Shown: in pieces, positions 29,113 through 51,375 of the stretch
Layout: every line of letters begins with the position of its first letter
How positions within the stretch are numbered: the stretch's first letter is position 1
Assembly (NCBI GenBank): GCA_022821685.1
Contig: JAJEDD010000027.1
Coordinates: 1,403-65,402 of the forward strand
Source: Acidimicrobiia bacterium
Lineage (GTDB): Bacteria; Actinomycetota; Acidimicrobiia; Acidimicrobiales; Aldehydirespiratoraceae
DNA length: 64,000 nucleotides
Reading direction: 5' to 3'
The notes under the pieces: model-generated
Told to the model about the DNA's origin: nothing
Databases searched by the model: none
What the model saw: only the letters and a program-made list of their open reading frames with translations
Translations under genes and position numbers: made by a program

Positions 29113-29583
29113 TCAGGGCCCGATGACTCGCTTCTCGATCTCGCTCCAGCAGGCCGCGGCGCGGTCGGCATCGAACAGCAGCGCCTCCATGCCGGCCGCA
29201 CGAGCCCCGGCGACGTTCTCGGGCTCGTCATCGACGAAGAAGACCTGATCGGCTGAGCTGTCGGTCACCATGAGTGCCCGTTGGTAGGCACGGCGGTCCG
29301 GCTTGAGCACACCGTTGTCGGAGCAGGCGATGATGTGGTCGACCTCGGCTAGGAGCGGCACTGATGTCGCCCAGGACCGGTCGATCTCGTTGCTGAGGAT
29401 CGCGACGCAGATCCCGGCCGCCCGGGCCCGGGCCACAACCGGGCGGCACTCGGGTCGTGTGGTGTCGTGCTCGGCAACCAGAGGCGAACAGCCACCGGTG
29501 TCCTGCCCGGCCACGACCTCTTGGGGGCTCAGGGTGCACACGCCGCCGTAGTCCAACAGGAGCACGCCGATGTCGCGCATCAT
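29113..29583 (-). CDS. short HAD-like protein with atypical motif I
   Basis: GVLLLDYGGV, ILSNE, LKPD and FVDDEPENV. Its start has a 4-nt overlap with the upstream ATPase gene. Confidence 0.6.
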   Translation of the reverse strand: MMRDIGVLLLDYGGVCTLSPQEVVAGQDTGGCSPLVAEHDTTRPECRPVVARARAAGICVAILSNEIDRSWATSVPLLAEVDHIIACSDNGVLKPDRRAYQRALMVTDSSADQVFFVDDEPENVAGARAAGMEALLFDADRAAACWSEIEKRVIGP

Positions 29584-30923
29584 TGCTGCCAGAGAGTCGC
29601 GACGGGTGCGGACCAGATGGTGCCGCCGCCGGTGTCGCTAGAGGCTGGCGAGAGGATCGTCGGTCGTCTGGGGCCGGTGTGGAGCACTACGCCACCGGCG
29701 AAGCGGTCCCCAAGCTGGTCGCGAAGCCATAGCAGGTGCCGGGCCTCGTTCAGCCCGGCGCGGTCGCCAGCCTTGACCTCTACACCGACCACGCCCTGCA
29801 GGCCGCCGTCGAGCACGAAGTCCACCTCCTGACCGCCGTCGCGGCGGAAGTGGCGCAGCCGATAGCCCGCCACCGTGGGATCGTGCTCGGACCGGAGCTG
29901 CGCGGCCACGAACGTCTCCATCAACCGGCCTCGCAGGTCGCCGCTGCGACCGATCGCCCAAGCGTCGGCGTCCCACATCGCGGCGGCGAGTCCGGCGTCC
30001 ACCAGCAGTCGCTTGGGAGACTTCTGCACCCGGCTGACCCCGCCGGGAATGAAAGCCGGAGCCTCGCAGGCCAGGAAGGTTCGCTCCAGCAAAGCCAGAT
30101 ACTCGCGGCCAGTGGCCCGAGTGATGCCGCTCTGCGCGCAGAGCCGCGTCAATGGCATGACCCGGCCACTGTGGGACGCATAGACGCGAGCGAACTCGAG
30201 CAGCTTGACCCGGTCCTGGCGCCCGAGCAGAGAGTCGACGTTGAGGGTCTGATCGACGCGGGCTCGAAGCGCGGCCGCTCGCAGCGGCTTGGACGACATG
30301 GCCATGGGCCTCGGGTAACCGCTCACGAGGGCCATCTCGATGTAGTCGTTGGTGTTGAACGTCGACGCGGCGTCGCCGAGATCACCGGCCGCGAGCCTGT
30401 CGAACAGCGGGGCAGCGACCGTCTGTTGCTTCTCCGCCTCCGTCAGCGGGAACATGTCGAGCGGCACGACCCGCCCGGTGCTCGGCAGTTGGCTGGCCTG
30501 CGTCGAGCGGAACGAGCCGGTGATTATGAACAGCCCGTTCTCGGCGGGTGCCCGGTCGACGATGCGTTTGACCGTCCACAGCACCTCAGGCGCCTGCTGC
30601 CACTCGTCAATCAATATCGGGGTCTCGCTCGCCTCGAACGCAGCCTGGGCGTCACGCTGGAGCAGCTCCGCGTCGTTGGGGTCGTCGAGGTAGAAGCAAG
30701 TGCCGGCATGACGCTCGGCCGTGGTCGTCTTGCCGCAGCCTCTGGGGCCGCGCAGCTCGACCGCAGGCACGGCGGCCAGCATGTCGCTGAGCCGCCGGTC
30801 GACAAGCCGCGGGATGTAGGCCCCGGACGGCGATGCTTCAAGCCGCTCGCCGAGAGTACGGCTCGGCGCAGCCCGGTCACCGCTCGCCCGAGCGGAACCC
30901 TCAAGGTCGTGCCCGCTCTTCAC
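29580..30923 (-). CDS. AAA-ATPase (AAA_14-type) with DUF4143 and a C-terminal PD-(D/E)xK-like module, paralogue 1
   Basis: Walker A GPRGCGKTT, Walker B ILIDEWQ, and the C-terminal EVDFVLDGG...VGVEVKAG. GTG start at 30923. Confidence 0.8.
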   Translation of the reverse strand: MKSGHDLEGSARASGDRAAPSRTLGERLEASPSGAYIPRLVDRRLSDMLAAVPAVELRGPRGCGKTTTAERHAGTCFYLDDPNDAELLQRDAQAAFEASETPILIDEWQQAPEVLWTVKRIVDRAPAENGLFIITGSFRSTQASQLPSTGRVVPLDMFPLTEAEKQQTVAAPLFDRLAAGDLGDAASTFNTNDYIEMALVSGYPRPMAMSSKPLRAAALRARVDQTLNVDSLLGRQDRVKLLEFARVYASHSGRVMPLTRLCAQSGITRATGREYLALLERTFLACEAPAFIPGGVSRVQKSPKRLLVDAGLAAAMWDADAWAIGRSGDLRGRLMETFVAAQLRSEHDPTVAGYRLRHFRRDGGQEVDFVLDGGLQGVVGVEVKAGDRAGLNEARHLLWLRDQLGDRFAGGVVLHTGPRRPTILSPASSDTGGGTIWSAPVATLWQQ

Positions 30924-30932
30924 GCAGTCAGA

Positions 30933-31024
30933 CTATCCAGTTTTCGGATGGGTGTCTGCGCGGTTTACGGGCACATTCTTGCGCGATTTCCGGGTGACTT
31001 CCTATCCGGTTTCTCGGATGGCCT
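30933..31024. repeat. 4-unit ~23-bp tandem array abutting the paralogue-1 start codon
   Basis: The units are ctatccagttttcggatgggtgt, ctgcgcggtttacgggcacatt, cttgcgcgatttccgggtgactt and cctatccggtttctcggatggcct. Units 1 and 4 are alike and palindromic (ATCCG..CGGAT); units 2 and 3 are alike. Confidence 0.75.
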
Positions 31025-31056: not shown

Positions 31057-32088
31057 TCAGCCTTGGCCGCCTGAGGCTTCCTTCACTGAGGCTTTGCCGG
31101 CTGATATCCACGGCATCATGGCTCTCAGCTCCTGGCCCACTGCCTCGATGGGGTGATCGTGGCCGGCGGCCTCCAGGCGCAGGAAGTTGGACCGGCCGCC
31201 CCGGCTCTCGGCCACCCACTCCTTGGCGAACGAGCCGTCCTGCACCTCAGTCAGGATCTGGCGCATCTCGGCTCGCACCGCGTCGTTCACGATGCGCGGC
31301 CCCCGGGTGAGGTCGCCGTACTCGGCGGTGTCCGACACCGAGTAGCGCATCCCGGAGATGCCCTCCTCGTACATGAGGTCCACGATCAGCTTCAGCTCGT
31401 GGAGGCACTCGAAGTAGCAGATCTCGGGCTGGTAGCCGGCATCGACCAGCGTCTCGAAGGCGGCTTGCACCAGCGCGGTGGTGCCCCCGCACAGCACGGA
31501 CTGCTCGCCGAACAGGTCGGTCTCGGTCTCCTCGGTGAAGGTGGTCTCGATCACTCCGGCCCGGGCCCCGCCGATGGCGTCGGCGTAGGCGAGGGCCAGC
31601 GGCAGCGCCGAGCCCGACGCGTCCTGCTCGATGGCCACCAGGCACGGCACCCCGCCACCCTCGACGTAGGTGCGCCGCACCAAATGTCCTGGCCCCTTGG
31701 GGGCCACCATGCACACGTCCACCGAGTCGGGCGGCTCGATCAGCCCGTAGCGGATGTTGAAGCCGTGGGCGAAGAAGATCGCCTCGCCCGGCTGCAGGTT
31801 CGGGGCGACGTGCTCTGTGTAGATGGCCCCCATCTCGGTGTCGGGCATGAGCATCATCACCAGATCGGCCTCGGCGGTCGCTTCGGCGATAGACCGGACC
31901 TCGAGCCCGGCCTCCTGCGCCTTCGCGGCCGACGACGAGCCGTCGCGCAGGCCGACGCGCACGTCGATCCCCGACTCCTTGAGGTTGAGCGCGTGGGAAT
32001 GGCCCTGCGAGCCGTAGCCCAGCACCGCCACCCTCCGGCCGGCGATGGCCGACCGGTCGACGTCGGATTCGTAATAGATGTTGACCAC
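31057..32088 (-). CDS. ilvC: ketol-acid reductoisomerase
   Basis: [21 protein letters not shown], ...FAHGFNI... and ...[11 protein letters not shown]... Confidence 0.97.
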
Positions 32089-32148: not shown

Positions 32149-32661
32149 TCAGAGGCCCAGCAGGCGCAGGGCCACCCGGCCGGTGCGCTGGAGCTGCACG
32201 ATCCCGAAGGCTCGCAGACGCTCCTCGAACTCGTCGAGCCTGTTGGGTCGGGCCGCCAGCGACAGCATCATCTGCGACTGGTCGGCGTCGAGCACGTAGG
32301 CCCGGAAGTCGTCGATCAGCTCCAGCAGCTCGTGGCGGCGCTCGCCGGAGTCCACCGCCACCGTCACCAGCATCAGCTCGCGCTCCACCGACTCTGTGGG
32401 GCTCAGCTCGCTGATCTCCACCACGTTGATGAGCTTGTCGAGCTGCTTCACCACCTGATCCAGCGGCGCCGAGGCCACGTCCACAGTGAAGGTGATGCGG
32501 CTGAAGCGCTCATCGGCGGTGGGGGCCACGGCCAGCGACTCGATGTTGAAGCCGCGCCGGGCGAACAGCCCCGCCACCCGGGCCAGAACGCCCGGCTTGT
32601 TCTCCACCGTGGTGACGATGGTGTGGAACTGGACGGCATCGGACACGGCGGGAGAACTCAT
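32149..32661 (-). CDS. ilvN: acetolactate synthase small (regulatory) subunit
   Basis: 170 aa. The ACT-domain start is HTIVTTVENKPGVLARVAGLFARRGFNIESL. Confidence 0.95.
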   Translation of the reverse strand: MSSPAVSDAVQFHTIVTTVENKPGVLARVAGLFARRGFNIESLAVAPTADERFSRITFTVDVASAPLDQVVKQLDKLINVVEISELSPTESVERELMLVTVAVDSGERRHELLELIDDFRAYVLDADQSQMMLSLAARPNRLDEFEERLRAFGIVQLQRTGRVALRLLGL

Positions 32662-32692
32662 AGTTGAGAGGGGTCGGACACGGCGAGAAAAC

Positions 32693-34426
32693 TCATCGCT
32701 GCGACGGGTCTACGACGATGTCGGAGTTGGACTGGCCCGCGGGGACCATCGGATAGACGTTCTCCTCCGCGGCGCTGCGGAACTCCAGCACCACGGGACG
32801 GTCGTCGATCTCGTTGGCCTTGGCGATGGCCGGGGCCACCTCCTCGGGGGCCTCCACCCGCATGGCGACGCAGCCCATGGCCTCGGCCCACTTCACGTAG
32901 TCGGGGACCTCGTGGGAGAGGTACACCTCGCTGTAGCGCTCTTCGTAGAACATCTCCTGCCACTGGCGCACCATGCCCAGGTAGGCGTTGTTGAACAGCG
33001 CGACCTTGATGGGGATGCGCTCGGTCGAGGCGGTGACCAGCTCCTGGGCGGTCATCTGGAAGCAGCCGTCGCCATCGACGGCCCACACCATCCGGTCGGG
33101 CATCCCGACCTTGGCCCCGATGGCGGCCGGCACCGAGAAGCCCATGGTTCCCAGCCCGCCGGAGTTGATCCAGGTGTAGGGATGGTCGAAGCGCCAGTAT
33201 TGGCTGGCCCACATCTGGTGCTGGCCCACCCCCGAGGTGACGATGGTGTCTTCGGGGGTCGAGTCGCGCAGCACCTCCAGCACGTACTGGGGCTTGAGCA
33301 GCTCGCCCGGCTCGGACTGCTCATAGACGAGCGGGTAGCGCTCCTGCCAGCCGCTGATCTGCGAGCGCCACTGTTGGCGATCGGCCTGGGTGCCGCGGCC
33401 CCCGCAGGCTCGCACCGCCTCGACCAGGTCGCCGATCACCAGCTTGCAGTCGCCCCGGATGGCCACGTCGGGGGTGCGGACCTTGCCCAGCTCGGCCGCG
33501 TCGATGTCGACGTGGATCACCTTGGCGTCGGGGGCGAAGCCGTCGAGGCGCCCGGTCACCCGGTCGTCGAATCGGGCGCCCAGCGCGATCAGCAGGTCCG
33601 AGCTCTGCATGGCGGTGACCGCGGTGTAGTTGCCGTGCATGCCGGGCATGCCCAGGCAGAGCTCGTGGCTGTCGGGGAAGCAGCCCCGGGCCATGAGCGT
33701 GGTGACCACCGGAACGTCGATCAGCTCGGCCAGAGCGATCAGCTCGGCCGCGGCCCGGGCCTTGAGGATCCCGCCCCCGGCGTAGATCACGGGACGCTCG
33801 GCGGCGCAGATCAGCTCGGCCGCGGCCTGCACCAGCTCGGGATCGCCGACGGTGGCGGGGCGGTAGCCGGGCAGCTCCATGAGGTCGTCGGTGGGCTCGT
33901 ACCAGGTCATGGCCGAGCGCGGGTTGCGGGGGTCGACGATGTCTTTGGGGATGTCGACCAGTACCGGGCCGGGACGGCCGGTGGTGGCGATGTGGAAGGC
34001 CTCGTGGACGATGCGGGGGATGTCCTGGGCCTCGGTCACCAGGAAGTTGTGCTTGGTGACCGACAGGGTTATGCCGGTGGTGTCGCACTCCTGGAAGGCG
34101 TCGGTGCCGATGGCGGCGTAGGGCACCTGGCCGGTGATGCACACCACCGGAACCGAGTCCATGTAGGCGTCGCACAGCGCGGTCACGGCGTTGGTGGCCC
34201 CGGGGCCGGAGGTGATCATCATCACGCCGGGGCGCCCGGTGGCGTGAGCGTAGCCCTCGGCCATGTGGCCCGCGCCCTGCTCGTGGCGCACCAGGATGTG
34301 GCGGATCGGCGACTCGATGATCGGGTCGTACACGGGCAGGATGGCCCCGCCAGGCAGCCCGAACACCACGTCGGCGCCCTCGCATTCGAGGGTCTTGACT
34401 AGGGCCTGTCCGCCGTTCATGTCCAT
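32693..34426 (-). CDS. ilvB: acetolactate synthase large subunit
   Basis: Trimmed to ATG 34426, with ggagg upstream. It contains GGQALVKTLECEGADVVFGLPGGAILPVYD and the ThDP motif GLGTMGFSVPAAIGAK...DGDGCFQM. Confidence 0.97.
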   Translation of the reverse strand: MDMNGGQALVKTLECEGADVVFGLPGGAILPVYDPIIESPIRHILVRHEQGAGHMAEGYAHATGRPGVMMITSGPGATNAVTALCDAYMDSVPVVCITGQVPYAAIGTDAFQECDTTGITLSVTKHNFLVTEAQDIPRIVHEAFHIATTGRPGPVLVDIPKDIVDPRNPRSAMTWYEPTDDLMELPGYRPATVGDPELVQAAAELICAAERPVIYAGGGILKARAAAELIALAELIDVPVVTTLMARGCFPDSHELCLGMPGMHGNYTAVTAMQSSDLLIALGARFDDRVTGRLDGFAPDAKVIHVDIDAAELGKVRTPDVAIRGDCKLVIGDLVEAVRACGGRGTQADRQQWRSQISGWQERYPLVYEQSEPGELLKPQYVLEVLRDSTPEDTIVTSGVGQHQMWASQYWRFDHPYTWINSGGLGTMGFSVPAAIGAKVGMPDRMVWAVDGDGCFQMTAQELVTASTERIPIKVALFNNAYLGMVRQWQEMFYEERYSEVYLSHEVPDYVKWAEAMGCVAMRVEAPEEVAPAIAKANEIDDRPVVLEFRSAAEENVYPMVPAGQSNSDIVVDPSQR

Positions 34427-34635: not shown

Positions 34636-35961
34636 ATGTTCCCGCGGCTGCGCTGGACCGGCGACGACACCGAGATCTGGCGGCTGGCGTGGCCGGCGCT
34701 GGGGGCGCTGGTGGCCGAGCCGCTGTATGTGCTGGCCGACACCGCCATCGTGGGCCGCCTCGGCACCCCCCAACTCGGCGGACTGGCGGTGGCCTCGTCG
34801 ATCCTGCTGAGCGCCCACGCCATGTTCATCTTCCTCGCCTACGGGACGACGGCCGCGGTGGCCCGGCTGCTGGGAGCGGGCCAGCACCGGCGGGCGGCCC
34901 ACCAGGCGGTGCAGAGCATCTGGCTGGCGCTGGCCGCGGGGGTCGTGCTGGCGGTGGTGGGGTTTGCTCTGGCGCCGGCCCTGGTGGACGCCCTCGGCGG
35001 CGACGACCCCGCTGTGCTCCACAACGCCCGCGTGTACCTGCGCATCTCGCTGTTCGGCCTGCCGGCCATGCTGGTGATGCTGGCGGGGGTGGGCTACCTG
35101 CGGGGCGTGCAGGACACCAAGCGGCCCTTCGCGGTGGCTCTGGGCTCGGCGGTGGGGAACTTCCTGCTCGAGGTGGTGCTGGTGTACGGGTTCGACCGGG
35201 GCATCGGCGCCTCGGCGCTGTCGACGGTGATCGCGCAGACCGCGGCGGCGGCCACCTTCGTGTGGTGGATCCGCGGTGCGGTGGCCCGCCACGGCGTGGG
35301 CCTGCGACCCGATCCGGCGGTGATCCGGCGCTTGGCGGTTGCCGGCTGGGACCTGTTGATCCGGACCTCGGCGCTGCGGGCCGGCCTGACCGTCACGGTG
35401 GCGATGGCGGCCCGGATCGGCACCGACGACCTGGCCGCGCACCAGATCGTGTTCGAGGTGTGGACGGTGCTGGCCCTGCTGCTCGACGCGGTGGCCATCG
35501 CGGGGCAGGCCCTGATCGGTCTGGCCCTCGGCGCGGGCCGGGCCGACCGGGCTCGGGCGCTGGGGCAGCGCATGATCGGCTGGGGCGCGGTGGCGGGAGT
35601 GATGACCGGCGCGATGGTGCTGGCGCTGTCGCCGGTGCTGCCCCGGGTGTTCACCTCCGACGCCGCGGTGGTGGCGCTGGCCGGCTTCCTGCTGCTGCAC
35701 GTCGGCTTCGCGCAGCCCGCGGCGGGGGTGGTGTTCGCCCTCGACGGGGTGCTCATCGGCGCCGGCGATCTGCGCTTCCTGGCCGTGTCGATGATCGGCG
35801 CGGGCGCAGTGCTGGCGGGCGGCGGGCTGCTGGTCGTGGCCGCCGGGGCCGGCATCGGCTGGCTGTGGGCCGCGCTCCACGCCTGGATGGCGACCCGCCT
35901 AGTGCTCATGCTGTGGCGCTTCTCGGGCTCAGCCTGGCAGATAACCGGCGCCGACCGCTAG
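34636..35961 (+). CDS. MATE-family efflux transporter (DinF-like)
   Basis: 441 aa, hydrophobic throughout. The N-terminal EIWRLAWPALGALVAEPLYVLADTAIVGRLG is typical of MATE proteins. Confidence 0.85.
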   Translation: MFPRLRWTGDDTEIWRLAWPALGALVAEPLYVLADTAIVGRLGTPQLGGLAVASSILLSAHAMFIFLAYGTTAAVARLLGAGQHRRAAHQAVQSIWLALAAGVVLAVVGFALAPALVDALGGDDPAVLHNARVYLRISLFGLPAMLVMLAGVGYLRGVQDTKRPFAVALGSAVGNFLLEVVLVYGFDRGIGASALSTVIAQTAAAATFVWWIRGAVARHGVGLRPDPAVIRRLAVAGWDLLIRTSALRAGLTVTVAMAARIGTDDLAAHQIVFEVWTVLALLLDAVAIAGQALIGLALGAGRADRARALGQRMIGWGAVAGVMTGAMVLALSPVLPRVFTSDAAVVALAGFLLLHVGFAQPAAGVVFALDGVLIGAGDLRFLAVSMIGAGAVLAGGGLLVVAAGAGIGWLWAALHAWMATRLVLMLWRFSGSAWQITGADR

Positions 35962-35993
35962 AAGCGGCGCCCGGAACCCCGACCTGACAATCC

Positions 35994-36089
35994 GACAATC
36001 TGTACAAGAACCCTCCTGTGAATCTGTACAAGAACCACCCTGCGATTCTGTACAAGAACTACCCCGACAATCTGTACAAGAACCACCCA
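35994..36089. repeat. 4 x 24-bp perfect-period tandem array
   Basis: The units are gacaatctgtacaagaaccctcct, gtgaatctgtacaagaaccaccct, gcgattctgtacaagaactacccc and gacaatctgtacaagaaccaccca. The invariant core is tctgtacaagaac, with palindromic TGTACA. Confidence 0.95.
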
Positions 36090-36128
36090 GCGAACTTCCG
36101 CTTTGTCTCCAATGGTGCGGCAAGGGCC

Positions 36129-36262
36129 TAGAGGCCGAGCGAATAGGTGAGCGAATCCGGTTCATACGGGCGAGGCCGTGGCCCGAGCGGCCGTGAGCGC
36201 AGCGAACAAGAGCGGGAAAGACAACCTTGCGACGCGACGGGCTCTCACCTATTTGCGCTCGC
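36129..36262 (-). repeat. dispersed intergenic repeat, short variant
   Basis: tagaggccgagcgaataggtgagcgaatccggttcatacgggcgaggccgtggccc..gtgagcgcagcgaacaagagcgggaaag.. Confidence 0.85.
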
Positions 36263-36284
36263 TCTTACGGGATCAGCGATGCGT

Positions 36285-37616
36285 TCAGGCCCATAGCACT
36301 GATAGCGGTGCCGACCAGATTCGGCCCCTACGCGCATCATCGAGGGGACGGGGCCTGCGACGGCCCGTGTGCAGCAGTACGCCGCCGGTGAAGCTCTCCC
36401 CGAGCAGTTCTCTCATCCAGAAGAGGTGGCGGGCTTCGCTGCGCCCGCCGTGCACGCCCACCTTCACCTCCACCGCCACGACGCCATTGACTCCTCCGTC
36501 GAGCACGAAGTCGACCTCGCGGTCGTTGCGACGCAGATGCGCGAGCCGGTACCCGGCTGCCGATGCCGAAGCCTGGACTCGCAGCTGGGCCGCTACGAAC
36601 GTCTCCAACAGCCGACCGCGCAGATCCGCGTTGGCGCAGATGGCAGCCGCGTCGGTGTTCCAGGCAGCGGCCAACAGTCCGGCGTCGACCAACAGACGCT
36701 TGGGAGCGCGCCGCAGATGGCTGATCCTGTTGGTGTGATACGACGGGGCGTCGGCCACCAGATAGGTGCGCGACAACAGGGTCAGATACGCATCCGCAGT
36801 GTTGCGGGAGATGCCGACCTCGTCGCAGAGCCGCTGCAGCGGCACCACGCCGGCCGAATGGAGGGCGTAGCAGGCGAAGAACTCGGCCAGCTTGGAACGG
36901 TCATGGCGCCCGATCAGGCCATCGACGTTGATCGTGCCGTCGATGCGGCTGCGCAGCCGCGCTCTGCGGGCCTCCGGATCCCCCTCGTCCATCGTGGCGG
37001 GATACCCGCTCTGCAAGGCCAGGTCGATGTAGTCGTTGACGGAAAGGTCAGTCTCGTCGGTCTCCAAGTCGAGGCCCTCGAACAGTCGCCGAATAAGCGA
37101 CACCGATGCTGTGCCGCGCCGTTCGGCGACGCTGAATGGGAACATGTCGATTACTTCGCTGCGTCCCGTGAGCGGCATCTGCTCACGGTCGGCGCCGCGC
37201 ACCGACCCGGCGATGATGAACTGGCCAGGCAACGCCGAAGAGTCGACATGGGCCTTCACCGCCCACAGCACCTCGGGTGCCTCCTGCCATTCGTCGATCA
37301 GCAGAGGCGCAGGTTGGCCGAGCAGCACCGAGCCCGGATCCTCGCGGACAGCCGCAGCGGTGTGAGGATCCTGCATGACCAGCACCGCCCCTGCCTGCTG
37401 CAGAGCAGTGGTGGTCTTGCCCACGCCGCGGGGTCCGCGCAACTCGACCGCAGCCGAACGCGACAACGCCTGTTCCAATTGCACATCGGCCAGCCTTGAG
37501 ATGTAGGGCTCGCCGCCCCCCGGCGCGGCCGAGGTGAGCGCGGGCAGCGCGCTCTGCAACCTCACCGCGCGGTCACCCGCGGTCACTCGAGTTCCCTCCG
37601 CAGGCACAATCCCCAT
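36285..37616 (-). CDS. AAA-ATPase (AAA_14-type) with DUF4143 and a C-terminal PD-(D/E)xK-like module, paralogue 2
   Basis: GPRGVGKTT, LLIDEWQ and EVDFVLDGG...VAVEVKVG. It is colinear with paralogue 1 over its full length. Confidence 0.8.
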   Translation of the reverse strand: MGIVPAEGTRVTAGDRAVRLQSALPALTSAAPGGGEPYISRLADVQLEQALSRSAAVELRGPRGVGKTTTALQQAGAVLVMQDPHTAAAVREDPGSVLLGQPAPLLIDEWQEAPEVLWAVKAHVDSSALPGQFIIAGSVRGADREQMPLTGRSEVIDMFPFSVAERRGTASVSLIRRLFEGLDLETDETDLSVNDYIDLALQSGYPATMDEGDPEARRARLRSRIDGTINVDGLIGRHDRSKLAEFFACYALHSAGVVPLQRLCDEVGISRNTADAYLTLLSRTYLVADAPSYHTNRISHLRRAPKRLLVDAGLLAAAWNTDAAAICANADLRGRLLETFVAAQLRVQASASAAGYRLAHLRRNDREVDFVLDGGVNGVVAVEVKVGVHGGRSEARHLFWMRELLGESFTGGVLLHTGRRRPRPLDDARRGRIWSAPLSVLWA

Positions 37617-37663
37617 TGCCGATCCTCTGATCAGCCCGATGGCCGCTCATGCCAATATTCTAC

Positions 37664-37757
37664 AGCTTGCGCGTTCTGAAGGCTCCAACTTGAGTATTTT
37701 GAAGGCTCTAACTTGCGCGTTCTGAAGATCGTTACTTGCGCGTTTTGAAGGCTCGCC
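37664..37757. repeat. 4-unit ~23-bp tandem array upstream of ATPase paralogue 2
   Basis: The units are agcttgcgcgttctgaaggctcc, aacttgagtattttgaaggctct, aacttgcgcgttctgaagatcgtt and acttgcgcgttttgaaggctcgcc. A TAGAAT -10-like hexamer (37657-37662, minus strand) lies between the array and the start codon. Confidence 0.85.
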
Positions 37758-37800
37758 TTGATGGTGCTAGCCAAGGCTGGACACGGGCGGGCGATGGGGT

Positions 37801-39258
37801 CTACTGATCGGCGTGCTGCTCTAGGAGGCGGTTTATGGCGGCGCCGTCGGCTTTGCCTTTGGTGGCTCGCATGACTTGGCCGGTGAGGAAGCCGGCCAGC
37901 TTCTTGCGCTCGGTTTCGTCGCCGGCGCGGTAGCGGTCCCAGGCGTCGGGGTTGTCGGCGATGACCTCCTCGAGGACCGCGGCCAGGTCGTCGCCGGCCA
38001 TGGCCTCGAAGCCCCGGCGCCGGGCGATCTCGTCGGGGGCACCGCCCGCTTCGGCCATCTCGGCCAGCACCTGCTTGGCCTGGGTGGCGGTGAGCTGTCC
38101 CGCCGTCTCCATGGCGACCAGGGCGGCCAGACCGTCGGGGGTGACGCGCGACCAATTGTCGGTGGCCAGGTCGTTCACCACCCGGGTGGCGGTCACCGCC
38201 GGGTCGGCTCCGGCCGCGACAGCGGCCCGCACCAGCCGGTCCTGGTTCCGCTCCACCAGCACGGCGGCATCCGCGGCTCCCACCCCGCCCACGGCGATGA
38301 GTTCGGCCCGACGGGCGGCGGGCAGCGGTGGCAGCGCGGCATCGATAGCCGCGACCGTGTCGGCCTCTGGAGCCAGCGGCACCAGGTCGGGATCCTGGAA
38401 GTAGCGGTAGTCCTCCGCGTCCTCCTTGGAGCGGCCCGGCGTGGTGCGCCCCCGCGCCTCGTCCCAGTGGCGGGTCTCCTGGCGGGGCCGTTCACCGCTG
38501 GTCCACAGCTCCACATGGCGCTGGGCCTCGTAGACGATGGCCCGGCCGAGGGACCGCAGCGAACTCAGGTTCTTGATCTCGCAGCGGGTGCGGAGCTCGT
38601 CGGCGCCGGCGGGGCGGACCGACACGTTGGCGTCCACCCGCATCGAGCCCTCCTCCATCCGGGCGTCGGACACGCCGACGGCCAGCAGCACGGCCCGCAG
38701 CTCTCGCACATACGACCGGGCCTGCTCGGCGGTGCGGATGTCGGGGCGGCTGACGATCTCCACCAGCGGAACCCCGGCCCGGTTGTAGTCGACCAGCGCA
38801 TAGTCGGCGTCGTGGATGCGCCCGCCGCCGCCGATGTGGGTGGTCTTGCCGGTGTCCTCCTCGATGTGGGCCCGCTCGATGCCGACGGTGTGGCCGTCAA
38901 CCAGCTCGAGGCGGCCGTCGATGCTGGTGGGCTGGTCGTACTGGGAGATCTGGTAGTCCTTGGGCATGTCGGGGTAGAAGTAGTTCTTGCGGGCGAACAC
39001 CGCCCCCTGCACCTCGCATCCCAGCGCCCGGCCCAGGCGCATGGCGAAGCTAACCGCGGTGGCGTTGGGTACCGGCAGCGAGCCCGGCAGGCCCAGACAC
39101 ACCGGACACACGTTGGTGTTGGGCTCGTCGCCGAAGCGGTTGGCGCAGCCGCAGAACAGCTTGGTGGCCGTGCTCAGCTCCACATGGACCTCCAGGCCCA
39201 CCACCAGCTCCCAGCCCTCGGCCAGCGCCTGCTCCCGGCCCGTCGCAGCCGGGCTCAT
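37801..39258 (-). CDS. gatB: Asp/Glu-tRNA(Asn/Gln) amidotransferase subunit B
   Basis: Trimmed to ATG 39258. It contains WELVVGLEVHVELSTATKLFCGCANRFGDEPNTNVCPVCLGLPGSLP. Confidence 0.97.
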   Translation of the reverse strand: MSPAATGREQALAEGWELVVGLEVHVELSTATKLFCGCANRFGDEPNTNVCPVCLGLPGSLPVPNATAVSFAMRLGRALGCEVQGAVFARKNYFYPDMPKDYQISQYDQPTSIDGRLELVDGHTVGIERAHIEEDTGKTTHIGGGGRIHDADYALVDYNRAGVPLVEIVSRPDIRTAEQARSYVRELRAVLLAVGVSDARMEEGSMRVDANVSVRPAGADELRTRCEIKNLSSLRSLGRAIVYEAQRHVELWTSGERPRQETRHWDEARGRTTPGRSKEDAEDYRYFQDPDLVPLAPEADTVAAIDAALPPLPAARRAELIAVGGVGAADAAVLVERNQDRLVRAAVAAGADPAVTATRVVNDLATDNWSRVTPDGLAALVAMETAGQLTATQAKQVLAEMAEAGGAPDEIARRRGFEAMAGDDLAAVLEEVIADNPDAWDRYRAGDETERKKLAGFLTGQVMRATKGKADGAAINRLLEQHADQ

Positions 39259-39314
39259 CGGGCACCTCCGCCAGATGGCGCAGCCTGCGTCCGGCCGGGA
39301 GCAGGCCCGCTCAT
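39255..39314 (-). other. relay mini-ORF 2 (19 codons, [19 protein letters not shown])
   Basis: Its ATG overlaps the stop of mini-ORF 1 (ATGA), and its TGA overlaps the gatB ATG (ATGA). Its C-terminus copies the GatA C-terminus APSGGGAR. Confidence 0.4.
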
Positions 39315-39385
39315 GAGGCACCTCCGCCAGCGGCTGTCGTGCCACCCTGGGAGTGCTGCCGACGGCCCGCGGCAGCCGGGCTCAT
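39311..39385 (-). other. relay mini-ORF 1 (24 codons, [24 protein letters not shown])
   Basis: Its ATG overlaps the gatA TGA (ATGA). Its first 5 residues copy the GatB N-terminus MSPAA. Confidence 0.4.
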
Positions 39386-50166: not shown

Positions 50167-51375
50167 CTAAGGAACCTCGGCCCTTGTCGAGCGGGTGGCG
50201 GTGCCGCCTCCCACTACGACATCGCCCGCGTAGGCGACCACGCTCTGGCCGGAGGCAACCTTGCGGCGGGGCTCGGCCCAGTACACCGCGGCACCGTCGG
50301 AGTCGATGGTGGCCTCCGCCGCGGTGCCGTGGGCCGAGGTCTGCACCAGCACGGGGCCGTCCACAGGTCCGTGCGTCCAGCGCCAGTCCTGCAGCGGCGT
50401 CGCCGAGCAGTCGAGCTCTGACCGGCTGCCCACCGTCACCGTCGACGACTCGGGGTGGACATCGAGCACATAGCGGGGCGATCCCCCGCCCATCGCGCCG
50501 AGGCCGCGGCGCTGGCCGACCGTCACCAACTCCAGCGCCTCGACGGTGCCGACCTGGCGGCCCGCAGTGTCCACCACCCGGCCCGGACGCATCGGGATGC
50601 GCTCATCGAGGAACTTGCGGCGACCGGCCGCGGCGGTGATGAAACACACGTCCTGGCTGTCGGGCTTGGCCGCCGTGACCAGACTCCGGGCCTCGGCCTC
50701 GCGCCGCACCTCGTCCTTGGTCGTCTCCCCCACCGGCAGCAGCAGCCGCTCCAGCACCGAAGTGCCGAGCATGTGCAAAACGTAGGACTGGTCCTTGGCG
50801 GCATCGGCGCCCCGGGCCAGCCGGGGTCCGGCCGCGGTCGAGACGATGCGGGCGTGGTGGCCGGTCGCCACCCGGTCGAAGCCCAGCGCGTCGGCCCGGC
50901 GCAGCAGTCGGTCGAACTTGATGTGCCGGTTGCACTCCACACAGGGATTGGGGGTGAGGCCGGCGGCATGGTCGGCGGCGTACGGGGCCACCACATGGCG
51001 CTCGAAGTCGTCGCCGAAGTTGAAGACGTGGTGCTCGATGCCCAACTCGTCGGCCGCCCAGCGGGCATCGTCCACATCGGACACCGAGCAGCAGCCGGTG
51101 TCGCTGGGTCCGCCCCAGAGCTTCATGGTGACTCCCGCTACGTCGTATCCCGCGTCGAGCAGGCGGGCCGCGGCCACCGATGAGTCCACCCCACCCGACA
51201 TGGCCACCAGCACCCTCGGGCCTCGAGCCCCGCCGATGCCGCCGGTTCCGTCCGCCCCGGCCGCTTCGCGAGGCGCGGACCGACCGCTCACACCGGCACC
51301 GCCGGTTCCGTCCGCCTCAGCCGCTTCGCGAGGCGCGGACCGCCTGATCGCGCCAGTGCCGCCGGTTCCGTCCAT
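50167..51375 (-). CDS. mnmA: tRNA 2-thiouridine(34) synthase
   Basis: PP-loop VAMSGGVDSS and CVECNRHIKFD. ATG 51375 would add a 54-aa repeat-containing extension; alternative starts are GTG 51213 and ATG 51201. Confidence 0.93.
   Translation of the reverse strand: MDGTGGTGAIRRSAPREAAEADGTGGAGVSGRSAPREAAGADGTGGIGGARGPRVLVAMSGGVDSSVAAARLLDAGYDVAGVTMKLWGGPSDTGCCSVSDVDDARWAADELGIEHHVFNFGDDFERHVVAPYAADHAAGLTPNPCVECNRHIKFDRLLRRADALGFDRVATGHHARIVSTAAGPRLARGADAAKDQSYVLHMLGTSVLERLLLPVGETTKDEVRREAEARSLVTAAKPDSQDVCFITAAAGRRKFLDERIPMRPGRVVDTAGRQVGTVEALELVTVGQRRGLGAMGGGSPRYVLDVHPESSTVTVGSRSELDCSATPLQDWRWTHGPVDGPVLVQTSAHGTAAEATIDSDGAAVYWAEPRRKVASGQSVVAYAGDVVVGGGTATRSTRAEVP
51231..51374. repeat. 60-bp tandem repeat, ~2.4 copies, at the iscS-mnmA junction
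   Basis: Units at 51241-51300 and 51301-51360 both begin gccggttccgtccgcc..gccgcttcgcgaggcgcggaccg, with a partial third unit at 51361-51374. On the minus strand they read in frame as DGTGG.G...RSAPREAA.A. Confidence 0.9.

What the first reader, a model, noticed from the sequence alone, without database searches (positions are those of the whole stretch)
37664..37757. Four-unit ~23-bp tandem array directly upstream of an AAA-ATPase/DUF4143/nuclease gene, related to the array upstream of its paralogue
Seen: four head-to-tail units have the consensus aaCTTGCGCGTTCTGAAGGCTC and a period of 23-24 bp, about two helical turns. The array ends ~48 nt before the start codon, with a TAGAAT -10-like hexamer in between. 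The paralogue at 29580-30923 has its own four-unit array (30933-31024) whose inner units share CTTGCGCG.TTYC with this consensus. These stretches are markedly AT-richer than the surrounding genome.

Inference: these are phased binding sites, iteron- or operator-like, probably for the encoded protein. DUF4143-type proteins are thought to contain a winged-helix DNA-binding part, and these two end in an E-V-D...E-V-K nuclease-like motif. I know of no description of such arrays for this protein family. The pairing of a repeat array with an ATPase-nuclease could be a self-regulated defence or mobile module.
Basis: partly seen in the sequence, partly recalled or inferred. Interest (0 to 1): 0.7.

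Follow-up and report, generated by a model that had tools for sequence, protein, structure and literature searches.

The report
Promoter repeat array of ATPase-nuclease genes
The four 23-bp repeats in front of this ATPase-nuclease gene are real and are shared by most related genes tested across many bacterial phyla; the last repeat carries the promoter's -10 box, so the array is most likely where the protein switches off its own gene, which has not been described for this very common but uncharacterised "defence candidate" family.

Summary
Four head-to-tail 23-bp units lie at 37657-37748 (- strand), upstream of an AAA_14/DUF4143 gene that PADLOC classes as PDC-S01. The paralogue at 29580-30923 has its own four-unit array at 30930-31021.

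A 23-bp self-repeat is the best lag in 70 of 81 upstream regions of homologues (35-78% identity), against 0-4 in three controls. It is also best in 34 of 41 more distant metagenomic homologues. Alphaproteobacterial plasmid copies carry a 22-bp version.

Unit sequences differ between loci and between paralogues in one genome. The period, orientation, copy number (usually 3-4) and position are constant. In 61 of 82 loci the gene-proximal unit ends in TANNNT, followed 5-8 nt later by the start codon. That layout predicts a leaderless mRNA, so the array lies upstream of the transcription start and overlaps the -10 and -35 positions.

Best explanation: a paralogue-specific operator on which the encoded protein binds head-to-tail and represses its own promoter. 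Binding is inferred, not shown. I found no prior description. Novelty: a new variant of a known kind (iteron/parC-like operator array). Interest is moderate to high, because the array gives a testable handle on an abundant family of unknown function.

The parts
37726..37748 (-). Repeat unit -3 (most distal full unit) of the W1 array: TCAAAACGCGCAAGTAACGATCT
37703..37725 (-). Repeat unit -2: TCAGAACGCGCAAGTTAGAGCCT
37680..37702 (-). Repeat unit -1: TCAAAATACTCAAGTTGGAGCCT. It lies over the -35 position of the predicted promoter.
   Evidence: promoter geometry inferred
37657..37679 (-). Repeat unit 0 (gene-proximal): TCAGAACGCGCAAGCTGTAGAAT. Its last six bases are the predicted -10 box.
   Evidence: family register
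37657..37662 (-). Predicted -10 hexamer TAGAAT
   Evidence: Sequence. A TANNNT hexamer sits at the same place in 61/82 homologous loci, against 2/1434 internal start-like codons.
37573..37650 (-). Short non-conserved ORF (25 codons). It starts 6 nt after the -10, at the position of the family's leaderless start codon, and is out of frame with the main gene. It is probably just the 5' leader in this clade.
36285..37616 (-). AAA_14/DUF4143 ATPase-winged helix-PD-(D/E)xK protein, 443 aa, PADLOC PDC-S01 ('W1')
30930..31021 (-). Four-unit 23-bp array of the paralogue. The proximal unit ends in the -10 TAGTCT (30930-30935), followed by 6 nt and then GTG at 30923, which predicts a leaderless mRNA.
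29580..30923 (-). Paralogous AAA_14/DUF4143 gene, 447 aa, 49.5% identical to W1 ('W2')

Best explanation
The array is a paralogue-specific operator built into the promoter of the ATPase-nuclease gene.

Each 23-bp unit has about 18 bp of recognised sequence in two blocks (unit positions 6-13 and 15-19), plus a 4-5-bp variable spacer. Three or four protomers of the encoded protein bind the direct repeats head-to-tail, probably through the winged helix at residues ~240-310. The PD-(D/E)xK domain may contribute.

The proximal unit contains the -10 box. The 23-bp period equals the start-to-start distance between the -35 and -10 hexamers, so the next unit covers the -35 position. Occupancy would therefore exclude RNA polymerase and hold expression of a potentially toxic ATPase-nuclease at a low, self-limiting level.

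The promoter needs no -35 box. In most family members the mRNA is leaderless. The array, promoter and gene thus form a self-contained cassette that works in many phyla.

Shown here: the repeats, their conservation, their fixed geometry relative to the predicted -10 and start codon, and their co-inheritance with the gene. Inferred: that the encoded protein binds the array, and that binding represses.
For: (1) Family-wide conservation of period but not of sequence.
- Lag 23 is the best self-match lag (tested 12-40) in 70/81 upstream regions. Controls: 2/81 downstream regions, 0/77 far-upstream regions, 4/81 shuffles.
- It is best in 34/41 more distant metagenomic loci, including low-GC organisms.
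- TRF finds period-23 arrays directly upstream of the gene in 23 loci; the listing (period 15-50, at least 2.5 copies) shows none elsewhere in the 80 loci.
- Unit-to-unit identity is 0.51 at lag 23, against 0.22-0.27 at lags 18-28.
- Plasmids of cultured bacteria (M. riyadhense, Collinsella, Thermus) show ~23-bp repeats; several alphaproteobacteria show 22-bp repeats.

(2) Promoter overlap.
- 61/82 loci have TANNNT 5-8 nt before an in-frame start codon, 46 of them at exactly 6 nt. Only 2/1434 internal start-like codons do.
- The units stack in register ending at that hexamer.
- W2 fits exactly. W1 has TAGAAT at the same place.

(3) A footprint-like conservation profile within arrays.
- Positions 6-13 and 15-19 agree in 63-80% of loci between units -1 and -2. 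Positions 1-4 agree in 31-40%.

(4) Locus-specific recognition.
- The W1 and W2 unit consensuses are only 35% identical.
- Unit similarity tracks protein identity: Mantel r = 0.32, with 0/2000 permutations reaching it. Unit identity is 0.74 above 80% protein identity and ~0.33 below 50%.
- W1-clade orthologues sit in unrelated contexts (IS elements, GmrSD, Fic, other DUF4143 genes) yet keep TTCAGAACGCGCARGYTG + TAGNNT.

(5) The protein has a plausible DNA-binding module.
- The AF2 model (pLDDT 87) shows AAA+, a helical lid, a winged helix with invariant K306/R307 in the wing, and PD-(D/E)xK.
- Fold neighbours are ORC/Cdc6, RuvB, RFC, and the STAND proteins NLR and MalT.

(6) One suggestive case.
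- L135 is the single W1-clade member with an altered left half of the unit.
- 12 of its 14 lineage-unique substitutions fall in the winged helix plus nuclease domains.
Against: - There is no direct evidence of binding or of the direction of regulation.
- A mutual-information scan between protein columns and unit positions was dominated by phylogeny. It showed no enrichment in the winged helix.
- The promoter and leaderless start are predicted from consensus, not mapped. The generic sigma-70 scan finds nothing at W1 because there is no -35 box.
- About 10-15% of homologous loci show no clear array. A Moraxella homologue has a palindrome instead.
- An array reaching to about -95 is longer than simple promoter occlusion needs. 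That leaves room for cooperative assembly or activation.
- In W1 the conserved core of each unit lies 5' of the -10-like part, so occlusion of the -10 itself is less certain in this clade.
Confidence: 0.6

Rival explanations
1. The encoded protein binds the array, but the array is mainly an assembly platform or activator site rather than a simple repressor site. ATP- or signal-dependent head-to-tail oligomerisation on the direct repeats would build a nucleoprotein complex, as with DnaA on DnaA boxes, Orc1/Cdc6 on ORB elements or MalT on MalT boxes. That complex would either activate transcription or keep the nuclease parked and inactive until a trigger releases it.
For: - The fold is AAA+/STAND-like with a winged helix. 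Its neighbours include ORC/Cdc6 bound to origin DNA, MalT, NLRs and Avs.
- Direct repeats imply head-to-tail protomers, as in AAA+ spirals.
- Three to four units span ~70-95 bp, more than promoter occlusion needs.
- The promoter has no -35 box, which would fit activator dependence.
- A Thermus AAA_14/DUF4143 gene was reported 6.6-fold up when plasmid DNA was present (PMC4406477).
Against: - The proximal unit overlaps the -10 itself. That is the classic position of a repressor, not an activator.
- Many promoters in the family have good or extended -10 boxes (TATTAT, TGGTATCAT) that should work without an activator.
- No data exist on oligomeric state.
Confidence: 0.17
2. The array is bound by a factor other than the encoded protein, such as a host regulator or nucleoid protein. 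Alternatively it acts only through DNA shape.
For: - Binding by the encoded protein is untested.
- The covariation scan did not single out the winged helix.
- A weak family-wide consensus (TG.GGgAAA..gGTA) exists. A conserved host factor could in principle read it.
Against: - Unit sequences differ almost completely between paralogues in one genome and between hosts. They stay conserved among orthologues in different hosts and contexts.
- The only locus-specific trans factor that travels with the array is the gene product.
- The architecture spans Actinomycetota, Pseudomonadota, Deinococcota, Chloroflexota-like and low-GC organisms. These share no dedicated regulator.
- A 23-bp period is out of phase with the helical repeat, so A-tracts spaced at 23 bp would not add up to intrinsic curvature (inference).
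Confidence: 0.07
3. The array is a cis-acting site for mobility or replication. It could be one end of a single-gene mobile cassette recognised by the ATPase-nuclease, or an iteron-type origin.
For: - Both copies in the window are single-gene insertions among housekeeping genes: gatB | W1 | MATE, and ilvC | W2.
- W1 orthologues sit in unrelated and often IS-rich contexts.
- The array always travels with the gene.
- Unit length and phasing resemble plasmid iterons and the TnsB-binding sites at Tn7 ends (established knowledge).
Against: - There is only one array per gene, always at the 5' end.
- No terminal inverted repeats or target-site duplications flank W1.
- No recombinase, transposase or Rep domain is present in the protein.
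- The W2 orthologue is syntenic after ilvBNC in another genome, so it is stably inherited there.
- No similar DNA was found in the plasmid or phage collections, and no relatives on viral contigs.
- The array's fixed relation to the -10 and start codon is already explained by promoter function.
Confidence: 0.05

Closest known systems
Plasmid iterons and their Rep initiators (pPS10 RepA, R6K pi, RK2 TrfA)
   Same: - Three to seven direct repeats, phased at about 22 bp.
- They lie next to the gene of the winged-helix protein that binds them.
- Their sequence is specific to each replicon.
- They are involved in autoregulation.
(established knowledge)
   Different: - Both arrays in the window lie between housekeeping genes on the chromosome, not at an origin.
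- No DnaA boxes or AT-rich unwinding element were noted next to either array in the window (not searched for systematically).
- The protein is an AAA+ ATPase-nuclease, not a WH1-WH2 Rep protein.
- The array is fused to the -10 box of the gene's own promoter. In iteron plasmids, a separate inverted repeat usually mediates autorepression.
Type II partition centromeres parC bound by ParR (R1, pSK41)
   Same: Tandem direct repeats directly upstream of the operon contain the promoter. The encoded DNA-binding protein binds them cooperatively, which autoregulates the operon (established knowledge).
   Different: - ParR is a small ribbon-helix-helix protein and the repeats are 10-20 bp.
- The centromere's main job is segregation.
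- No partner ATPase gene or plasmid context is present here. ATPase and DNA binder are a single polypeptide that also carries a nuclease domain.
STAND/AAA+ transcription factors and initiators that oligomerise on repeated sites (MalT boxes, SARP/AfsR repeats, DnaA boxes upstream of dnaA, Orc1/Cdc6 ORB elements)
   Same: - The domain order is an NTPase module followed by a helical lid and a winged or helix-turn-helix domain; fold neighbours are.
- These proteins show nucleotide-dependent cooperative binding to arrays of sites in the same orientation at or near promoters.
- dnaA is autoregulated (established knowledge).
   Different: - Structural similarity is weak (TM about 0.2-0.35), and no sequence relative has a solved structure.
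- The site period here is 22-23 bp, not 9-11 bp.
- The sites differ for every paralogue instead of defining a regulon.
- The protein ends in a PD-(D/E)xK nuclease domain.
PADLOC candidate defence system PDC-S01 (COG1373; Pfam AAA_14 + DUF4143)
   Same: Both window proteins match model PDLC04790 end to end (E = 7e-88 and 3e-84). They have the Pfam pair AAA_14 + DUF4143.
   Different: Nothing differs at the protein level. The family has no assigned mechanism. It is described as the fourth most common defence candidate in prokaryotes (PMC12988326). One representative did not protect E. coli B against T7, T5 or T4. The literature I could search mentions no upstream repeat array.

Membership tests
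AAA_14/DUF4143 proteins (COG1373, PADLOC PDC-S01) | Pfam AAA_14 followed by DUF4143, above the gathering cut-offs | tested here: met
   W1: AAA_14 49.4 bits, DUF4143 105.9 bits. W2: 53.0 and 100.4 bits.
AAA_14/DUF4143 proteins (COG1373, PADLOC PDC-S01) | Full-length match to a PDC-S01 model | tested here: met
   PDLC04790, residues 38-443 against model positions 11-419 of 422.
AAA_14/DUF4143 proteins (COG1373, PADLOC PDC-S01) | Intact Walker A/B motifs and the PD-(D/E)xK catalytic motif | tested here: met
   G61, G66-K67-T68, D108-E109, E367 and E383 are invariant; D369 and K385 are at least 90% conserved. The AF2 model places them in an AAA+ core and an alpha/beta nuclease fold.
AAA_14/DUF4143 proteins (COG1373, PADLOC PDC-S01) | Anti-phage activity | not testable with these tools
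   The family is only a candidate. One representative gave no protection against T7, T5 or T4.
Autoregulatory operator array | Sites overlap the core promoter of the gene | tested here: met
   By prediction only. The proximal unit ends in TANNNT, 5-8 nt before the start codon, in 61/82 loci against 2/1434 controls. W1 has TAGAAT and W2 has TAGTCT. No experimental transcription start is available.
Autoregulatory operator array | Site sequence co-varies with the regulator and is specific to each paralogue | tested here: met
   Mantel r = 0.32, 0/2000 permutations. W1 and W2 units are 35% identical. Orthologues in unrelated contexts keep the same unit. Residue-level covariation was inconclusive.
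Autoregulatory operator array | The gene product binds the sites and changes transcription | not testable with these tools
   Needs EMSA or footprinting, plus reporter assays.
Plasmid iterons | Tandem direct repeats phased at about 22 bp next to the gene of a winged-helix protein | tested here: met
Plasmid iterons | Part of a replication origin with a Rep-family initiator | tested here: not met
   The protein has no Rep domain. Both arrays lie between chromosomal housekeeping genes, gatB and ilvC. The array is fused to the promoter's -10 box.
Transposon or IS end | Terminal inverted repeats or matching sites at both ends, a target-site duplication, and a transposase | tested here: not met
   No matching inverted or direct repeats flank the gene. 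No transposase domain is present. No similar DNA occurs in plasmids or phages.
Structured or repeat RNA (riboswitch, CRISPR-like array, sRNA) | The array is transcribed, and matches an RNA family or has repeat-spacer organisation | tested here: not met
   No Rfam match at the gathering threshold or at E <= 1. The units are contiguous, without spacers. The array lies upstream of the predicted transcription start.

The most novel reading that the evidence does not exclude
The 22-23-bp array may be more than a repressor site. It could be the home base of a DNA-templated AAA+ machine.

In this reading, three to four ATPase-nuclease protomers polymerise head-to-tail on their own private repeat track, one per paralogue. 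The nuclease would be held inactive there. It would be released or activated when foreign DNA or an ATP-state change disrupts the complex.

The array, the -35-independent leaderless promoter and the gene would together form a portable one-gene sensor-effector cassette. That would explain why the family is so abundant, so often multi-copy, and so easily transferred between phyla.
Probability: 0.15. Interest if true: 0.85.

Novelty: new variant of a known kind. Interest (0 to 1): 0.65.

Why it matters
AAA_14/DUF4143 (PDC-S01) proteins are among the most common uncharacterised ATPase-nucleases in bacteria and archaea. PADLOC-based surveys rank them as the fourth most frequent defence candidate. 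Yet they have no known mechanism, ligand or target, and the one heterologous phage test I found was negative.

A conserved, paralogue-specific DNA array at a fixed place in the promoter is the first concrete clue to what these proteins recognise. Three consequences follow.

1. It predicts a sequence-specific DNA ligand for each protein. That makes EMSA, footprinting, ChIP and cryo-EM directly feasible, including in tractable hosts whose plasmids carry the 22-23-bp version (Agrobacterium, Rhizobium, Thermus, Mycobacterium).
2. It suggests these genes are tightly self-limited. Heterologous tests from foreign promoters may therefore misreport their activity.
3. It corrects gene starts. The leaderless start 6 nt after the -10 is better supported than some database starts: the paralogue is annotated 47 codons too short, and one orthologue's annotated ATG overlaps the -10 box.

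The architecture is also a compact example of a promoter built from operator repeats that works across phyla.

Tried and rejected
- Residue-by-base mutual information between 64 aligned proteins and their unit consensuses was dominated by phylogeny. The top pairs were scattered over all domains, with no enrichment in the winged helix. Result: inconclusive, and not used as support.
- Rfam scans of the whole window (gathering threshold) and of 35900-37850 (E <= 1) found nothing. Together with the predicted transcription start downstream of the array, the RNA-element reading is rejected.
- The generic sigma-70 and terminator scan of 35900-37850 found nothing, as expected for a promoter without a -35 box.
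- blastn of the array region against plasmids and phages gave no match. The unit pattern hit viral contigs twice, both as isolated single copies with no neighbouring repeats (one reads like a helicase-type protein motif), so I treat them as chance. No relatives of the protein were found on viral contigs. A known repeat or IS end is rejected.
- A search for terminal inverted repeats or target duplications around W1 found none.
- The sequence search against PDB found no homologue. Foldseek gave only weak AAA+/STAND/ORC-type hits, so no structural template for the DNA complex exists.
- I tested whether the 24-bp array at 35997-36092 is an orphan array of the same kind or a remnant of another DUF4143 gene. 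There is no protein remnant, no ORF of note and no stable fold. Its period and block spacing also differ from the family's. It remains unexplained.
- The HAD-like ORF downstream of W2 is not truncated by an insertion. It starts with a motif-I-like LLLDYGGV.

Full report
**1. What is in the window**

The window is high-GC (0.68) and comes from an Acidimicrobiia-like genome; the closest protein hits are Acidimicrobiaceae/Acidimicrobiales MAGs. On the minus strand the gene order is:
- gatB (37801-39345)
- an AT-rich gap
- an AAA_14/DUF4143 gene, 'W1' (36285-37616)
- a convergent MATE-like gene
- ilvB, ilvN, ilvC (31057-32088)
- a second AT-rich gap
- a paralogue, 'W2' (29580-30923; 49.5% identical to W1)

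Both proteins match the PADLOC candidate PDC-S01 end to end.

**2.

TRF reports 37666-37754 with period 23 and 3.9 copies. Lag-23 self-match is 0.725, against at most 0.478 in 5000 shuffles. Only one of 12,782 windows sampled across the 64 kb reaches that value. The array has GC 0.46. The core 17-mer occurs nowhere else in the window.

The W2 array is too diverged for TRF. It still shows four units in a 23-nt register at 30930-31021, with self-match 0.536 against a shuffle maximum of 0.464. Its inner two units share AAWHCGCGCARG-like cores with W1. That pattern occurs only twice in the window, once per array, with 0.06 expected.

**3.

I fetched 80 loci encoding homologues (35-78% identity) from one-genome-per-species contigs. 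They come from Acidimicrobiia, Pseudonocardiaceae, Mycobacteriales, Bifidobacteriaceae, Gammaproteobacteria, Polyangiaceae, Dormibacteraceae and others.

- TRF found period-23 arrays (2.5-4.6 copies) ending just before the gene in 23 loci. The listing (period 15-50, at least 2.5 copies) shows no period-23 array anywhere else in these loci.
- A more sensitive test took the best self-match lag, among lags 12-40, in any 92-nt window of the 200 nt upstream. Lag 23 won in 70 of 81 loci. Controls gave 2/81 for downstream regions, 0/77 for regions 600-800 nt upstream, and 4/81 for shuffles.
- Forty-one further loci from metagenomes (27-50% identity, several from low-GC organisms) gave lag 23 in 34 cases.
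- On plasmids of cultured bacteria, M. riyadhense, Collinsella and T. thermophilus show ~23-bp repeats.
- Alphaproteobacterial plasmids carry three or four 22-bp units, CTTTCAAT.GGTC-like. These are Salipiger, Qingshengfaniella, Mesorhizobium and Rhizobium acidisoli, and more weakly Agrobacterium and Ensifer.
- A Moraxella homologue (24% identity) has a palindrome instead, and Trichlorobacter shows nothing clear.

The array is therefore widespread in the PDLC04790-type lineage, with some exceptions.

**4. Anatomy**

When all loci are aligned on the gene, the units stack in a fixed register.
- In 61 of 82 loci the proximal unit ends in TANNNT, followed 5-8 nt later by an in-frame ATG, GTG or TTG. 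In 46 loci the gap is exactly 6 nt. The same configuration occurs at only 2 of 1434 internal start-like codons.
- This is the signature of a leaderless mRNA whose -10 box is the 3' end of the last repeat.
- Gammaproteobacterial members have extended -10 boxes such as TGGTATCAT. No -35 box is evident.
- The family consensus unit is nnnnTG.GGgAAA..gGTA.Tnn.
- Within arrays, positions 6-13 and 15-19 are the conserved blocks, while positions 1-4 are a variable spacer.
- Identity between neighbouring units is 0.51 at lag 23, and 0.22-0.27 at every other lag from 18 to 28.
- Most loci have three units (43 loci) or four (16 loci); the signal is gone by the fifth.
- The period of 23 bp equals the start-to-start distance of the -35 and -10 hexamers (17 + 6). 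Units 0 and -1 therefore cover both polymerase contact regions (inference).

W2 fits this plan exactly...CCCATCCGAAAACTGGATAGTCT gactgc GTG(30923). A database protein on a contig of the same length that appears to be W2 is annotated at 400 aa (P0031). That start would cut off the conserved YIPRL motif.

W1 has TAGAAT + attggc + ATG at the same place, but this ATG (37650-37648) is out of frame with the gene, which starts 34 nt downstream. The whole W1 clade (72-81% identity) shows this pattern:
- an N-terminal extension (…LPVLTSAAPGG…);
- a 35-75-nt leader;
- a short, non-conserved uORF at the ancestral start position.

**5. Who binds it?**

Unit sequences diverge quickly.
- Consensus identity between loci is about 0.33 when proteins are less than 50% identical, and 0.74 when they are more than 80% identical. 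Mantel r = 0.32, with 0 of 2000 permutations reaching it.
- The two paralogues in this genome have different units (35% identity).
- W1 orthologues keep TTCAGAACGCGCARGYTG-TAGNNT although they lie in unrelated neighbourhoods: next to IS elements, GmrSD, Fic, Schlafen/AlbA genes or other DUF4143 genes.
- The W2 orthologue in another Acidimicrobiales genome is syntenic after ilvBNC. It has evolved faster than its neighbour: 76% identity, against 94% for IlvC.

A trans factor that is locus-specific and travels with the array is most simply the gene's own product.

The AF2 model (pLDDT 87) has four parts:
- an AAA+ core (43-170);
- a helical lid (174-234);
- a winged helix (240-310), with recognition helix 271-283 and invariant K306/R307 in the wing;
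- a PD-(D/E)xK domain (357-440) with E367/D369 and E383/K385.

Fold neighbours are weak (TM at most 0.35) but telling: NLR/Apaf-1/Avs STAND proteins, RuvB, RFC, ORC and Cdc6/Orc1 on origin DNA, and MalT. No sequence relative has a solved structure.

A residue-by-base mutual-information scan was swamped by phylogeny and is inconclusive. One suggestive case exists. L135 is the only W1-clade member with a changed left half-unit, and 12 of its 14 lineage-unique substitutions lie in the winged helix plus nuclease domains.

**6. Mechanism**

The best-supported reading (confidence about 0.6) is a private operator. Three or four protomers bind the direct repeats head-to-tail and block the -10 and -35 positions, which gives negative autoregulation of a potentially toxic ATPase-nuclease.

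Shown: the repeats, their conservation, their fixed geometry and their co-inheritance with the gene. Inferred: binding by the encoded protein, and the sign of regulation.

The main rival (about 0.17) keeps self-binding but sees the array as an ATP-dependent assembly or activation platform, in the style of DnaA, ORC or MalT.

Less likely readings are:
- Binding by another factor (about 0.07).
- A role in mobility or replication (about 0.05). There is only one array per gene, no inverted repeats or target duplications, no recombinase or Rep domain, and no similar DNA in plasmids, phages or viral contigs.
- An RNA element. This is rejected: there is no Rfam hit, and the array lies upstream of the predicted transcription start.

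**7. Comparison with what is known**

Functionally the array resembles plasmid iterons and parC/ParR centromere-operators. Like them, it consists of phased direct repeats next to, and regulating, the gene of the protein that binds them. It also resembles the arrays used by AAA+/STAND DNA binders.

It is not an iteron in the strict sense, because it has no origin context and no Rep protein. It is not a transposon end.

The protein is a bona fide member of AAA_14/DUF4143 = PDC-S01. That family is described as the fourth most common defence candidate in prokaryotes but remains unvalidated (PMC12988326). One representative failed to protect E. coli B against T7, T5 and T4 (bioRxiv 10.1101/2024.09.26.614923).

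Full-text searches for DUF4143, PF13635, COG1373, PDC-S01, Rv2008c and combinations of repeat terms returned no description of upstream repeats. The searchable library is incomplete, so absence of a report is not proof.

**8. Verdict**

The finding generalises from one locus to a lineage-wide promoter-operator architecture. I rate it a new variant of a known kind of system, with interest 0.65.

Noticed in passing
window 35997-36092 (+): A second, unrelated array: four 24-bp direct repeats (TCTGTACAAGAACCACCC + 6 variable nt). GC is 0.48 and lag-24 self-match is 0.82. It lies between the convergent stops of the MATE-like gene (35961) and W1 (36285). It has no Rfam match, no convincing ORF, no DUF4143 remnant and no stable fold, and the motif occurs nowhere else in the window. 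Its function is unknown.
   Followed up: partly
window 36130-36265: An imperfect 22-nt inverted repeat (77% complementary, 92 nt apart) lies just downstream of the W1 stop codon. The region folds no better than shuffled sequence (z = +1.1).
   Followed up: yes
window 32639-32708: A 35-bp direct duplication (83% identical) sits at the ilvB/ilvN junction. Both copies contain the reverse complement of an ATG-led N-terminus (…CTCAT…).
   Followed up: no
window 51237-51373: A 60-bp tandem repeat, 2.3 copies, 84% matches (TRF score 204).
   Followed up: no
window 29580-29583: The W2 stop codon overlaps the ATG of a small HAD-like ORF (29113-29583, 156 aa) in an ATGA arrangement. This suggests co-transcription. 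The HAD-like gene is absent downstream of the W2 orthologues in L004 and L005.
   Followed up: partly
window 37573-37650 (-); L001, L002, L133-L135: In the W1 clade, a short non-conserved uORF (9-25 codons) begins 5-12 nt (5-7 in most) after the -10 box, where other family members have their leaderless start. In L001 and L134 its stop overlaps the main ATG. The annotated ATG of orthologue P0004 (L133) overlaps the -10 hexamer and is probably wrong.
   Followed up: partly
L140-L144, L125 (alphaproteobacterial plasmids): Homologues at 27-31% identity carry three or four repeats with a 22-bp rather than 23-bp period (CTTTCAAT.GGTC), followed by a leader containing a Shine-Dalgarno sequence. The unit boundary reads TTGACT/TTTACT, so the same hexamer could serve as -35 in one unit and as -10 in the next.
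   Followed up: partly
L128 (Moraxella bovis plasmid): A 24%-identical homologue has a ~45-bp perfect palindrome (AAACCTAGTTTAATTTAAGATATAATCTTAAATTAAACTAGGTTT) over its promoter instead of direct repeats.
   Followed up: no
L133 4236-4287, L134 4055-4094, L136 3881-3969: Three W1-clade orthologues have unrelated tandem repeats (periods 19, 18 and 29) within 80-400 nt downstream of the gene. This echoes the 24-bp array downstream of W1. It could be coincidence in variable regions.
   Followed up: no
L133, L136: W1-type genes lie next to a second AAA_14/DUF4143 gene in two metagenomic contigs. Other orthologues neighbour GmrSD, Fic, Schlafen/AlbA and IS transposase genes, i.e. contexts typical of defence islands or mobile regions.
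   Followed up: partly
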